Source: a virus. Taken from it: a stretch of 46,547 nucleotides of DNA. Position numbers and translations under genes: made by a program. The stretch lies in the IMG/VR virus record IMGVR_UViG_3300032167_000209, positions 1 to 46,547 of that record; one strand, 5' to 3'. Below are positions 19,955-20,081 of this stretch, piece by piece (the stretch's first letter is position 1; each line of letters opens with the position of its first letter). The notes below the pieces were generated by a model, which worked only from the letters and a program-made list of their open reading frames with translations, did not search any database and was not told where the DNA came from.

Positions 19955-20081
19955 TGGTGCCGGTGGCGAGACTCGAACTCGCACGGGTATTTAAACCCAA
20001 GGGATTTTTGGTGCTGGGTATGAGTGCTGCCCTCATTAAACTCACTGGAGACTCAACAAGTCCCTGGTGTCTACCATTCCA
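19955..20081 (-). tRNA. atypical 127-nt tRNA-like gene; anticodon loop TTGTTGA, isotype unresolved; about 64-nt insertion where the variable arm sits
   Basis: 7-bp acceptor GCCGGTG/CACCGGC, D-arm GTGG-AATGGTAGA-CACC nearly identical to the tRNA-Leu at 45951, T-arm GCGAG-TTCGAGT-CTCGC, CCA; the insertion contains its own hairpins. Confidence 0.4.

What the first reader, a model, noticed from the sequence alone, without database searches (positions are those of the whole stretch)
19955..20081. 127-nt tRNA-like gene with a 64-nt insertion in place of the variable arm
It has a perfect 7-bp acceptor stem, a D-arm almost identical to the tRNA-Leu at 45951 and a canonical T-arm plus CCA. The stretch between the anticodon stem (GGGAC-TTGTTGA-GTCTC) and the T-arm is about 64 nt and contains its own hairpins (ATGAG-GGCAGCA-CTCAT and GGGT-TTAAAT-ACCC). 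This is too short for a group I intron and far too long for a type II variable arm. It could be a tRNA carrying an unusual insertion, a tRNA-derived regulatory RNA, or a processed precursor yielding two RNAs.
Basis: seen in the sequence. Interest (0 to 1): 0.6.

Follow-up and report, generated by a model that had tools for sequence, protein, structure and literature searches.

The report
tRNA-shaped mini-intron in phage tRNA-Leu
A phage leucine-tRNA gene is split in its anticodon loop by a conserved 49-base insert that itself folds like a miniature tRNA ending in CCA; no intron class checked here fits it, and no description was found in the held paper library.

Summary
It lies on the minus strand at 19955-20091. 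It is a complete type II tRNA-Leu(UAA), with its own variable arm, T-arm and CCA. A 49-nt insert (20009-20057) sits in the anticodon loop between U34 and A35, not in the variable arm.

The insert belongs to a family: 83 copies and 49 distinct sequences in phage and metagenome contigs, none among 46 hits in 185,579 bacterial and archaeal genomes. Every copy has a 7-bp terminal stem, a short stem with a CCAGUG hexaloop, a 5-bp stem with a GGCAGCA heptaloop, then the 3' strand and NCCA. All three stems covary, and the two loops change together as sets.

The insertion site varies (32/33, 34/35, 35/36) across tRNA-Leu, Gln, Ile and amber-suppressor genes. Cutting 5' of the stem and right after CCA always restores a 7-nt anticodon loop and a callable tRNA.

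It fails the tests for group I, bulge-helix-bulge and HDV-like elements. My best reading, which is inferred, is a tRNA-mimic intron cut out by tRNA end-processing nucleases and resealed by phage RNA-repair ligase.

The parts
19955..20091 (-). Interrupted tRNA-Leu(UAA) gene, 137 nt including the encoded CCA
   Evidence: Rfam tRNA 42.1 bits over the full model. After removing 20009-20057, ARAGORN calls an 88-nt tRNA-Leu(UAA). Coordinates verified.
20058..20091 (-). 5' exon, 34 nt: acceptor 5' strand (20085-20091), D-arm, anticodon stem 5' strand AGGGA (20061-20065), loop C32 U33 U34 (20058-20060)
20009..20057 (-). 49-nt tRNA-like insert (putative intron): GUUGAGU CU CCAGUG AG UUUA AUGAG GGCAGCA CUCAU ACCCAGC ACCA
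   Evidence: Covariance model R1 scores 63.1 bits, E 1.4e-16, and this is the only copy in the window. Family alignments.
20051..20057 (-). Insert outer stem, 5' strand (GUUGAGU). Pairs with 20013-20019; 6 of 7 pairs form, with one A.C mismatch.
   Evidence: All 7 pairs of this helix show changes on both sides across the family.
20041..20050 (-). 2-bp mini-stem CU/AG closing the hexaloop CCAGUG (20043-20048), which is invariant within this loop type
   Evidence: Both pairs covary: GC 15, AU 13, UA, CG and others. Structural alignment.
20020..20036 (-). 5-bp hairpin AUGAG/CUCAU with the heptaloop GGCAGCA (20025-20031); T-arm-like
   Evidence: 97.7% of cells paired; 4 of 5 pairs covary; the closing G-C is invariant. 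The same arm is the T-arm of a phage permuted tmRNA and matches the Rfam alpha-tmRNA consensus GGCgGUA.
20009..20019 (-). Outer stem 3' strand ACCCAGC (20013-20019) directly abutting the hairpin, followed by ACCA (20009-20012). This mimics a mature tRNA 3' end.
   Evidence: NCCA was present in all 9 true hits of a scan that did not require it. A73 in 38 of 39.
19955..20008 (-). 3' exon, 54 nt: A35 A36 A37 A38 (20005-20008), anticodon stem 3' strand UCCCU (20000-20004), variable arm GGGUUUAAAUACCC (19985-19998), T-arm (19966-19982), acceptor 3' strand (19959-19965), A73 (19958), CCA (19955-19957)
45951..46038 (-). Second, uninterrupted tRNA-Leu(UAA) of the same phage. It is 76% identical to the spliced form, with compensatory stem changes.
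19794..20447 (-). Array context: promoter-like site (20419-20447), suppressor tRNA(CUA) 20243-20317, the interrupted tRNA-Leu, tRNA-Gly 19874-19948, tRNA-Lys 19794-19870. All are on the minus strand, all encode CCA, and the downstream tRNA-Gly and tRNA-Lys follow after spacers of only 6 and 3 nt.

Best explanation
The feature is a tRNA-Leu(UAA) gene interrupted between U34 and A35 by a 49-nt intron of a structural class I did not find described.

The intron is a miniature tRNA mimic. It has a 7-bp acceptor-like stem stacked on a 5-bp T-arm-like hairpin, 12 bp in all, with a 7-nt loop. A short D-arm-like hairpin has a loop that co-varies with the T-like loop. The 3' tail is a discriminator plus CCA.

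Shown: the anatomy, the family, the covariation, the restriction to phage and metagenome contigs, and the rule that intron-defined boundaries always restore a 7-nt anticodon loop.

Inferred: the insert is removed from the RNA.

Inferred further: because the boundaries are exactly the two ends of a mature tRNA acceptor stem, the cuts are made by tRNA end-maturation nucleases. RNase P would cut 5' of the stem, guided by NCCA and the 12-bp stack. An endonuclease that cuts immediately after CCA would make the second cut. Such cuts are documented for Thermotoga RNase Z and for E. coli RNase E on proline tRNAs.

The tRNA body would hold the two exons together, and a phage ATP-dependent RNA ligase would seal them. 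This phage also encodes a polynucleotide kinase and phosphoesterases that could heal other kinds of RNA ends. The released 49-nt CCA-ended mini-tRNA may be a by-product or may have its own function.

At the DNA level the insert probably behaves as a mobile or immunity element linked to free-standing homing endonucleases next to the tRNA gene.

The confidence of 0.45 is for the statement as a whole. I put precise splicing at about 0.75 and the full RNase P, after-CCA nuclease and ligase route at about 0.35.
For: 1. The host is a complete tRNA with the insert in the anticodon loop.

2. Family size: 83 copies, 62 distinct pre-tRNAs and 49 distinct inserts in IMG/VR and metagenome contigs. All 46 pattern hits in 185,579 species genomes are chance matches in GC-rich coding DNA.

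3. Structure: 88.5% of cells paired against 56.2% in shuffles. 13 of 14 pairs show changes on both sides. Covariation score 0.84, against 0.235 in shuffles and 0.10-0.15 in slid controls. G.U pairs and constant sense orientation show selection on the RNA.

4. The loops change only as coupled sets: CCAGUG+GGCAGCA, CAAGUG+GGCAGUA and CCAGAG+GUCAUCA. One mixed case, CCAGAG+GGCAGCA, was seen, and a later recount listed a second combination, CCAGUG+GUCAGCA, which I did not inspect. Near-identical introns differ at just the two coupled positions. This indicates a loop-loop contact like a tRNA elbow.

5. The insertion site varies (32/33, 34/35, 35/36) across tRNA-Leu(UAA), Gln(UUG), Ile(UAU) and Sup(CUA). 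Cutting 5' of the 7-bp stem and after NCCA still gives ARAGORN-callable tRNAs in 48 of 50 and 15 of 16 cases, against 0 of 50 unspliced.

6. In 61 of 63 relatives' loci no intact tRNA-Leu(UAA) is present, although other isoacceptors are. The interrupted gene therefore seems to be needed.

7. The same arm (G-C closure, GGCAG[C/U]A loop, 7 nt, ACCA) serves as T-arm and acceptor end in a phage permuted tmRNA and in tRNA-sized array members.

8. Position +1 is G in 28 of 39, position 72 is C in 26 of 39, A73 in 38 of 39, and position -1 is U or C.

9. The window's own genome (JGI Ga0318466_10001127, 185.5 kb) encodes an RNA ligase (PHROG 968, E 2.6e-60), a polynucleotide kinase (PHROG 505) and two phosphoesterases just beyond the window. 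Three RNA ligase families lie near intron-bearing tRNAs in relatives.

10. Precise endonucleolytic cleavage right after CCA has precedent (PMC3161902, PMC5291269).

11. HNH or PD-(D/E)XK endonuclease genes lie within 1.5 kb in 17 of 62 relatives, typically 90-270 nt downstream on the same strand.
Against: - There are no RNA data. Splicing itself is inferred from conservation.
- No nuclease is identified. RNase P and an after-CCA nuclease are proposed from shape alone.
- CCA inhibits most RNase Z enzymes.
- The heptaloop is not a canonical T-loop.
- Most scans imposed the loop motifs, the spacing and, in some, ACCA, so invariance is partly built in. This is only partly controlled.
- This phage has a second, intact tRNA-Leu(UAA) (45951-46038), so splicing is not strictly required in this genome.
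- The window copy has one A.C mismatch in the outer stem.
- Large tRNA-rich phages often carry RNA ligase and kinase genes (my own knowledge, not tested here), so finding them here does not tie them to this insert.
- No endonuclease gene adjoins the window's copy.
Confidence: 0.45

Rival explanations
1. It is a genuine intron, but a dedicated and still unidentified protein endonuclease, phage- or host-encoded, cuts it out. The enzyme would recognise the two conserved loops and cut at both helix ends, probably leaving 2',3'-cyclic phosphate and 5'-OH ends. The phage polynucleotide kinase and phosphoesterase would heal these ends and the RNA ligase would seal them, as phage T4 does when it repairs anticodon-nuclease damage.
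For: About 20 of 49 nt are invariant, more than RNase P recognition alone would need. The same genome encodes a kinase, phosphoesterases and a ligase, a complete heal-and-seal set. The boundaries are defined by the intron rather than the tRNA body, because the site varies.
Against: No candidate RNA endonuclease was seen in the window or in 93 neighbouring ORF families. It does not explain why the 3' boundary is exactly NCCA, or why the same arm is the T-arm of tmRNA and tRNA-like genes.
Confidence: 0.2
2. The insert is a new small self-cleaving or self-splicing ribozyme, perhaps distantly HDV-like in topology. The outer stem would be P1, the hairpin P3 with its loop L3, and the loop GG would pair with the CC of CCA as a P1.1-like pseudoknot.
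For: The fraction of invariant nucleotides is high for 49 nt. The hairpin directly abuts the 3' strand of the outer stem, as P3 abuts P1 in HDV-like ribozymes. Minimal HDV-like 'theta' ribozymes are common right next to gut-phage tRNAs, including Leu and Sup (PMC10879173). Position +1 is usually G.
Against: No Rfam ribozyme family matches the window copy at E up to 10, or the copies in 11 relatives' loci at E up to 1. There is no partner strand for P2. No C follows the P1.1-like site that could act as the catalytic residue. Position 1 pairs with C rather than U. There is no exon-intron guide pairing. One small RNA would have to cut at both ends. The conserved arm also occurs in non-intron tRNA-like genes.
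Confidence: 0.1
3. The insert is never spliced out. It disables or repurposes the gene as a pseudogene, as a decoy for anticodon nucleases, or as a precursor that is only cut into tRNA halves plus a mini-RNA. It would persist because it protects the DNA from adjacent homing endonucleases.
For: The window's phage has an intact second tRNA-Leu(UAA). Endonuclease genes adjoin many copies. There is no RNA evidence for splicing.
Against: The exons stay perfect tRNAs across divergent lineages, with compensatory changes. The restored loop is exactly 7 nt and carries a sense anticodon at three different insertion sites. In most relatives' loci no other tRNA-Leu(UAA) is seen. The RNA structure of the insert is itself under selection.
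Confidence: 0.12
4. One reading: a tRNA with anticodon arm GGGAC-UUGUUGA-GUCUC (anticodon GUU) and a roughly 64-nt replacement of the variable arm.
For: The 5-bp pairing GGGAC/GUCUC exists in the window sequence.
Against: The Rfam alignment places the insertion in the anticodon loop, with an intact AGGGA/UCCCU stem and an intact variable arm. The alternative pairing is absent in relatives, where exon-insert complementarity does not exceed shuffled controls. Removing 20009-20057 gives a canonical tRNA-Leu.
Confidence: 0.01

Closest known systems
Group I intron of bacterial and plastid tRNA-Leu(UAA), and other bacterial tRNA group I introns (PMC3984707; Patescibacteria, PMC13011429)
   Same: The same host tRNA, and in the window the same site (U34|A35). 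It interrupts the anticodon loop of a bacterial-type tRNA gene and is associated with homing endonucleases.
   Different: It is 49 nt rather than about 200 nt or more. There is no P1-P9 core, no terminal G, no guide pairing with the 5' exon and no Rfam hit. It cannot self-splice by the group I route.
Archaeal and eukaryal protein-spliced tRNA introns with a bulge-helix-bulge motif (PMC4090602)
   Same: They are short, sit in or near the anticodon loop and can occupy non-canonical positions. The boundaries are set by the intron-exon structure, and the exons are rejoined by an RNA ligase.
   Different: There is no bulge-helix-bulge. The two junctions flank a 7-bp helix with 0-nt and 4-nt (NCCA) offsets. 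The loops are strongly conserved in sequence. The context is a bacteriophage, where no splicing endonuclease is known.
tRNA-like small RNAs released by RNase P and RNase Z (mascRNA from MALAT1, plant t-elements, minihelix model substrates); from my own knowledge
   Same: An acceptor/T-arm mimic embedded in a longer transcript, with ends that coincide with tRNA processing sites. mascRNA likewise ends in CCA.
   Different: Those elements are not introns and the flanks are not rejoined. Here the element sits inside another tRNA's anticodon loop and the flanks must be ligated. CCA is encoded rather than added.
tRNA-like domain of two-piece (permuted, alpha-type) tmRNA
   Same: The T-arm and 3' end are nearly the same: the Rfam consensus CCGGG-GGCgGUA-CCCGG-7 nt-ACCA against G-closed GGCAG[C/U]A-7 nt-ACCA. 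There is no anticodon arm, and the CCA is internal to the precursor. A phage permuted tmRNA (L004 4122-4401) carries exactly GGCAGUA.
   Different: There is no G3.U70 alanine identity pair, no mRNA-like reading frame and no pseudoknots. The order is not permuted, the length is 49 nt, and it is nested in a tRNA.
Theta (minimal HDV-like) ribozymes next to gut-phage tRNAs (PMC10879173)
   Same: The same ecological setting (large, often TAG-recoded gut phages), the same tRNA types (Leu, Sup), a size of about 50 nt, and a junction at a CCA.
   Different: Theta ribozymes lie downstream of the tRNA, not inside it, and have the HDV double pseudoknot with a catalytic C. Neither version of the paper that I searched uses the word 'intron'.
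Free-standing homing endonuclease plus endonuclease-less intron ('collaborative' or trans homing, such as T4 mobE with I-TevIII, PMC2790892)
   Same: HNH or PD-(D/E)XK genes lie immediately beside the interrupted gene. HNH genes that are 90% identical sit beside tRNA-Leu genes whose inserts occupy different sites.
   Different: The partner intron is not a group I intron. Cleavage specificity is untested. No endonuclease gene adjoins the window's copy.

Membership tests
tRNA (Rfam RF00005) | Cloverleaf with acceptor, D, anticodon and T arms scoring above the gathering score | tested here: met
   42.1 bits against a gathering score of 29, with a 52-nt insertion state in the anticodon loop. After in-silico splicing, ARAGORN calls an 88-nt tRNA-Leu(UAA).
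   The variable arm GGGUUUAAAUACCC is normal. The extra 49 nt lie between U34 and A35.
Group I intron | Conserved P1-P9 core (about 200 nt or more), pairing of a guide sequence with the 5' exon, terminal G | tested here: not met
   49 nt, ends in A, no Rfam group I hit at E up to 10, and exon-intron complementarity no higher than in shuffles.
Bulge-helix-bulge (archaeal/eukaryal) tRNA intron | Two 3-nt bulges holding the splice sites, separated by a 4-bp helix | tested here: not met
   The junctions sit at the base of a 7-bp helix: directly 5' of it, and 4 nt (NCCA) 3' of it.
Bulge-helix-bulge (archaeal/eukaryal) tRNA intron | Cleavage by an EndA/TSEN-type splicing endonuclease | not testable with these tools
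   No such gene was seen in the window or in neighbouring ORFs. Only about a third of the 185-kb genome was available.
HDV-like / theta ribozyme | Nested double pseudoknot (P1, P1.1, P2, P3), catalytic C at the start of J4/2, G1.U wobble at the cleavage site | tested here: not met
   No P2 partner. Only ACCA follows the P1-like strand. Position 1:72 is G-C in 21 rows and never G.U. No Rfam HDV-family hit.
HDV-like / theta ribozyme | Self-cleavage in vitro | not testable with these tools
   Needs an experiment.
tRNA-like minihelix (substrate type of bacterial RNase P and the CCA-end enzymes) | 7-bp stem coaxial with a 5-bp stem (12 bp), 7-nt loop, no nucleotides between the two 3' strands, single-stranded NCCA 3' tail | tested here: met
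   Present in all 49 distinct inserts, including copies found without these constraints.
tRNA-like minihelix (substrate type of bacterial RNase P and the CCA-end enzymes) | Actual cleavage by RNase P at position +1 and by a nuclease after A76 | not testable with these tools
   Inference only.
tmRNA tRNA-like domain | T-arm, acceptor stem and ACCA | tested here: met
   The arm matches the alpha-tmRNA consensus and a phage permuted tmRNA.
tmRNA tRNA-like domain | G3.U70 identity pair and a tag-encoding reading frame | tested here: not met
   Pair 3:70 is UA, CG, AU or GC, with G.U in only 1 of 44 rows. A 49-nt RNA has no room for a tag frame.
DNA transposon / MITE | Terminal inverted repeats with a target-site duplication; either orientation | tested here: not met
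   No duplication at CUU|...|AAAA. The stems contain G.U pairs. All 83 copies have the same sense as the host tRNA.
Homing-endonuclease-associated mobile intron | Endonuclease gene inside or immediately beside the intron | tested here: inconclusive
   None inside the 49-nt insert. HNH or PD-(D/E)XK genes lie within 1.5 kb in 17 of 62 relatives. None lies beside the window's copy.

The most novel reading that the evidence does not exclude
This would be a third route of tRNA splicing. A tRNA-shaped intron, found only in phage genomes, would be cut out by the cell's own tRNA end-maturation machinery (RNase P at its 5' end, an after-CCA endonuclease at its 3' end). Phage RNA-repair ligase would reseal the exons. 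The process would release a 49-nt CCA-ended mini-tRNA that may itself be functional, for instance as a decoy or ligand for CCA-end-binding factors. The element would spread or persist together with free-standing homing endonucleases that target anticodon-loop DNA.
Probability: 0.35. Interest if true: 0.9.

Novelty: categorically new. Interest (0 to 1): 0.82.

Why it matters
As far as I know and as far as the papers I retrieved show, bacterial and phage tRNA introns are all self-splicing group I (rarely group II) introns, and short protein-spliced tRNA introns are treated as a hallmark of archaea and eukaryotes. A conserved 46-52-nt intron class in phage tRNA genes would break that rule, because its boundaries are the two ends of a mimicked tRNA acceptor stem.

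It would also mean that standard tRNA finders miss functional phage tRNAs. ARAGORN called 0 of 50 unspliced copies here. This affects estimates of phage tRNA repertoires and of stop-codon recoding, since amber-suppressor tRNAs also carry the insert.

The finding offers a directly testable hypothesis linking RNase P, CCA-end processing and phage RNA-repair enzymes. The physiological substrates of those repair enzymes are still debated.

Finally, the module is compact and self-delimiting, which could make it useful as an engineered RNA-processing cassette.

Tried and rejected
- ARAGORN and the Rfam gathering scan miss the gene. Only the permissive Rfam scan finds it.
- Minimum-free-energy folding is uninformative. 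For the inserts alone the outer stem is predicted in 31 of 37, but the covariation-supported hairpin in only 6 of 37, because GUG of the hexaloop can pair with CAC of the heptaloop.
- BLAST of the region against 50,697 GenBank phage records returned only generic tRNA similarity.
- An exact 24-mer search and two protein-anchored searches of IMG/VR found no close relatives of the window.
- The genome-collection scan returned 46 hits, all chance matches.
- I considered and rejected group I, bulge-helix-bulge, HDV-like/theta, hammerhead and other Rfam ribozymes, MITE, and an exon-intron guide helix.
- Pairing of the U-rich linker with the A-rich 3' exon (a P2-like helix) is not supported. The linker does not change when the exon start changes to AUAA, GAC or UGAC.
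- I looked for RNA nucleases or RtcB among the window ORFs and 93 neighbouring ORF families and found none.
- Walking further along the 185-kb parent contig was not possible, because look-ups are restricted to window proteins.
- Eight literature searches found no description of this element. The library is incomplete, so prior description cannot be excluded.

Full report
**What is at the coordinates**

The feature is on the minus strand. ARAGORN and the Rfam gathering scan list nine tRNAs in the window but not this one. With permissive filters the Rfam tRNA model aligns 19958-20091(-) end to end (42.1 bits, gathering score 29, E 1.6e-7).

That alignment gives the following anatomy:
- acceptor stem GCCGGUG/CACCGGC
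- a tRNA-Leu-type D-arm
- anticodon stem AGGGA/UCCCU
- a type II variable arm, GGGUUUAAAUACCC
- T-arm GCGAG-UUCGAGU-CUCGC
- A73 and an encoded CCA

The only anomaly is about 50 extra nucleotides inside the anticodon loop. Exact parts are: 5' exon 20058-20091, insert 20009-20057 (49 nt), 3' exon with CCA 19955-20008. The anticodon loop reads CUU|insert|AAAA, which is tRNA-Leu(UAA) interrupted between U34 and A35.

**The insert is a family**

A generic pattern for tRNA-Leu genes with any 35-65-nt surplus found two IMG/VR contigs carrying a homologous insert at the same site. A covariance-model search was also run.

Together these give 83 copies, 62 distinct pre-tRNAs and 49 distinct inserts of 46-52 nt. 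The same pattern found 46 places in 185,579 bacterial and archaeal species genomes. All are chance matches in GC-rich coding DNA with no tRNA context. Several metagenome records are labelled human gut. The window has exactly one copy (63.1 bits, E 1.4e-16, filters off), and none was found in a further 33 kb of the same genome.

**Architecture**

From 5' to 3', every insert has:
- a 7-nt strand
- 0-3 nt
- a 2-bp mini-stem closing the hexaloop CCAGUG
- a U-rich linker
- a 5-bp stem closed by an invariant G-C, with the heptaloop GGCAGCA
- directly, with no spacer, the 7-nt partner of the first strand
- NCCA, almost always ACCA

On the model-based alignment, 88.5% of cells are paired against 56.2% in shuffles. 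13 of 14 pairs change on both sides. The covariation score is 0.84, against 0.235 in shuffles and 0.10-0.15 in slid controls. G.U pairs and the constant sense orientation show that selection acts on the RNA, not on DNA inverted repeats.

A scan that allowed 32 loop combinations returned almost only three coupled sets: CCAGUG+GGCAGCA, CAAGUG+GGCAGUA and CCAGAG+GUCAUCA. One mixed case, CCAGAG+GGCAGCA, appeared. A later recount also listed one CCAGUG+GUCAGCA copy, which I did not inspect. Near-identical introns differ at just the two coupled positions. The two loops therefore almost certainly touch, as the D- and T-loops do in a tRNA elbow.

**The boundaries behave like splice sites**

The insert occurs at 32/33, 34/35 or 35/36. 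Its hosts are tRNA-Leu(UAA), tRNA-Gln(UUG), tRNA-Ile(UAU) and amber-suppressor tRNA(CUA).

One rule is defined by the insert alone: cut 5' of the 7-bp stem and immediately after NCCA. Applying it always leaves a 7-nt anticodon loop (CUUAAAA, CUUUGAC, CUUAUAA or CUCUAAA). ARAGORN of 50 unspliced sequences. After in-silico splicing it of 50, and 15 of 16 of the loop variants.

The exons differ widely between lineages, with compensatory stem changes. In 61 of 63 relatives' loci no other tRNA-Leu(UAA) is present, although tRNA-Leu(CAA) and tRNA-Leu(UAG) are common. This argues that the RNA is spliced precisely. That conclusion is inference; no RNA data were available. The window's phage is unusual in also holding an intact tRNA-Leu(UAA), 76% identical to the spliced form.

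**What it is not**

- It is not a group I intron: 49 nt, ends in A, no Rfam hit.
- It has no guide pairing with the exons; observed complementarity is no higher than in shuffles.
- It has no bulge-helix-bulge.
- It matches no Rfam ribozyme.
- It resembles the HDV-like fold only in that the hairpin abuts the outer stem. There is no P2 partner, no catalytic C and no G1.U wobble.
- It is not a MITE.

**What it resembles**

Seven plus five stacked base pairs, a 7-nt loop and a discriminator plus CCA make up the top half of a tRNA. The identical arm is the T-arm and acceptor end of a permuted tmRNA in a phage contig, and it matches the Rfam alpha-tmRNA consensus GGCgGUA. It also occurs in tRNA-sized array members of other phage contigs. 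The insert thus looks like a miniaturised member of a phage tRNA-like lineage, nested in another tRNA.

**Most likely mechanism (inferred)**

The two junctions coincide with the two mature ends of a tRNA acceptor stem. I therefore propose that RNase P cuts at the 5' junction. The NCCA tail, the 12-bp stack, the frequent G+1:C72 pair and A73 fit what I know of bacterial RNase P substrates. An endonuclease would cut right after CCA. That activity is documented for Thermotoga RNase Z and for E. coli RNase E on proline tRNAs (PMC3161902, PMC5291269). Both reactions leave 3'-OH and 5'-P ends, which an ATP-dependent RNA ligase can join.

The window belongs to a 185.5-kb JGI contig whose ends it spans. 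Just outside the window that genome encodes an RNA ligase, a polynucleotide kinase and two phosphoesterases. Three RNA ligase families lie near interrupted tRNAs in relatives. Because a healing kinase and phosphatases are present, an endonuclease or ribozyme that leaves cyclic-phosphate ends cannot be excluded. I rate the full RNase P model at about 0.35 and the existence of precise splicing at about 0.75.

**DNA-level behaviour**

In 17 of 62 distinct relatives an HNH or PD-(D/E)XK endonuclease gene lies within 1.5 kb, usually 90-270 nt downstream on the same strand. HNH genes that are 90% identical sit beside tRNA-Leu genes whose inserts occupy different sites. This fits a free-standing homing endonuclease that targets the uninterrupted anticodon-loop DNA, with the insert giving immunity. 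No endonuclease gene adjoins the window's copy.

**Novelty**

Eight full-text searches found no description of this element. The closest work concerns theta ribozymes beside gut-phage tRNAs, and neither version of that paper that I searched uses the word 'intron'. A 2026 survey of Patescibacteria tRNA genes reports group I introns there (PMC13011429). The library is incomplete, so the novelty claim is provisional.

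Noticed in passing
window 20243-20317 (-), and the whole window: There is an amber-suppressor tRNA(CUA), which ARAGORN labels 'Pyl'. Reading TAG as sense raises the coverage by ORFs of at least 100 aa from 0.836 to 0.944 and the longest ORF from 816 to 1263 aa. The phage probably reassigns TAG in part of its genome.
   Followed up: partly
window 21264-21348 (-): An 85-nt tRNA with anticodon UGU (Thr) has a long, type II-like variable arm and an acceptor stem almost identical to that of the interrupted tRNA-Leu. 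This body is unusual for a tRNA-Thr.
   Followed up: no
window 5916-8366 (-) and 1137-2693 (-): One ORF matches the major vault protein shoulder and repeat domains. Another is a DUF2828/DUF7788 protein (PHROG 850 'RNA-binding protein', E 4e-129). Homologues of the DUF2828 protein lie next to interrupted tRNAs in 23 relatives' loci, ending about 45 nt upstream of the tRNA in one lineage.
   Followed up: partly
L227 11408-19156 (same genome, just beyond the window's left end): An RNA-repair gene set is present: RNA ligase with an OB-fold domain, polynucleotide kinase, two metallophosphoesterases and a weak macro-domain match. NAD-salvage genes (NAPRTase-like, NAD synthase) lie alongside.
   Followed up: partly
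window 3646-4959 (-): An N4/N6 DNA methylase lies next to an IceA-family nuclease. This looks like a phage-borne restriction-modification pair.
   Followed up: no
window 31307-31678, 39271-39537, 39628-41604, 43547-44824 (-): Several ORFs begin with a match, mostly weak, to the major tropism determinant N-terminal domain. With the DUF6273 and CotH-like ORFs they suggest a large and diversified set of tail-fibre genes.
   Followed up: no
L231 (record 173281-185543) and L227 (record 30399-51172): The window runs across the ends of the 185,543-bp JGI record Ga0318466_10001127, so the genome is probably circular or terminally redundant and complete. At least 23 tRNA genes lie in the parts I could read. 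A weak ArfA-like ORF sits at L231 2028-2195.
   Followed up: partly
L003 10534-10627 (-): A tRNA-Leu(UAA) carries a different 41-nt insert at the same U34|A35 site. It lacks CCAGUG, GGCAGCA and NCCA. An HNH gene and a DUF2828 gene are also held in that locus. It may represent a second insert class.
   Followed up: no
L004 4122-4401 (-), L008 2978-3031 (+): Phage contigs encode a permuted (two-piece) tmRNA (Rfam 116.6 bits) whose T-loop is GGCAGUA. Near it in L004 and L008, an incomplete tRNA-like copy directly precedes a tRNA-Leu gene.
   Followed up: partly
L055 2250-2323, 5134-5205, 5379-5452 and 4766-4981 (+): A dense tRNA array contains tRNA-sized members that the Rfam tRNA model does not call. 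They have GGCAG[C/U]A T-loops and ACCA ends. Inside the array a 216-nt stretch weakly matches the archaeal RNase P RNA model (35 bits, E 9e-7, below the gathering score).
   Followed up: partly
L017 4520-4660 (+): The host of one insert is an odd suppressor-like tRNA (spliced loop CUCUAAA). Its own T-loop is GGCAGUA and its 3' end reads UGCCA. ARAGORN does not call it even after in-silico splicing.
   Followed up: no
L136 2327-2642; L122 340-458; L164 121-232: Other structured RNAs lie beside interrupted tRNAs: a ROOL RNA (129 bits), a skipping-rope RNA (51.7 bits) directly upstream of the tRNA, and a Y-RNA-like (YrlA) match below the gathering score.
   Followed up: no
L286 5838-5878 region: A structure-compatible copy of the module (CAAGUG+GGCAGUA, ACCA) is not embedded in any tRNA. 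It is either a free-standing mini-tRNA-like gene or a chance match.
   Followed up: no
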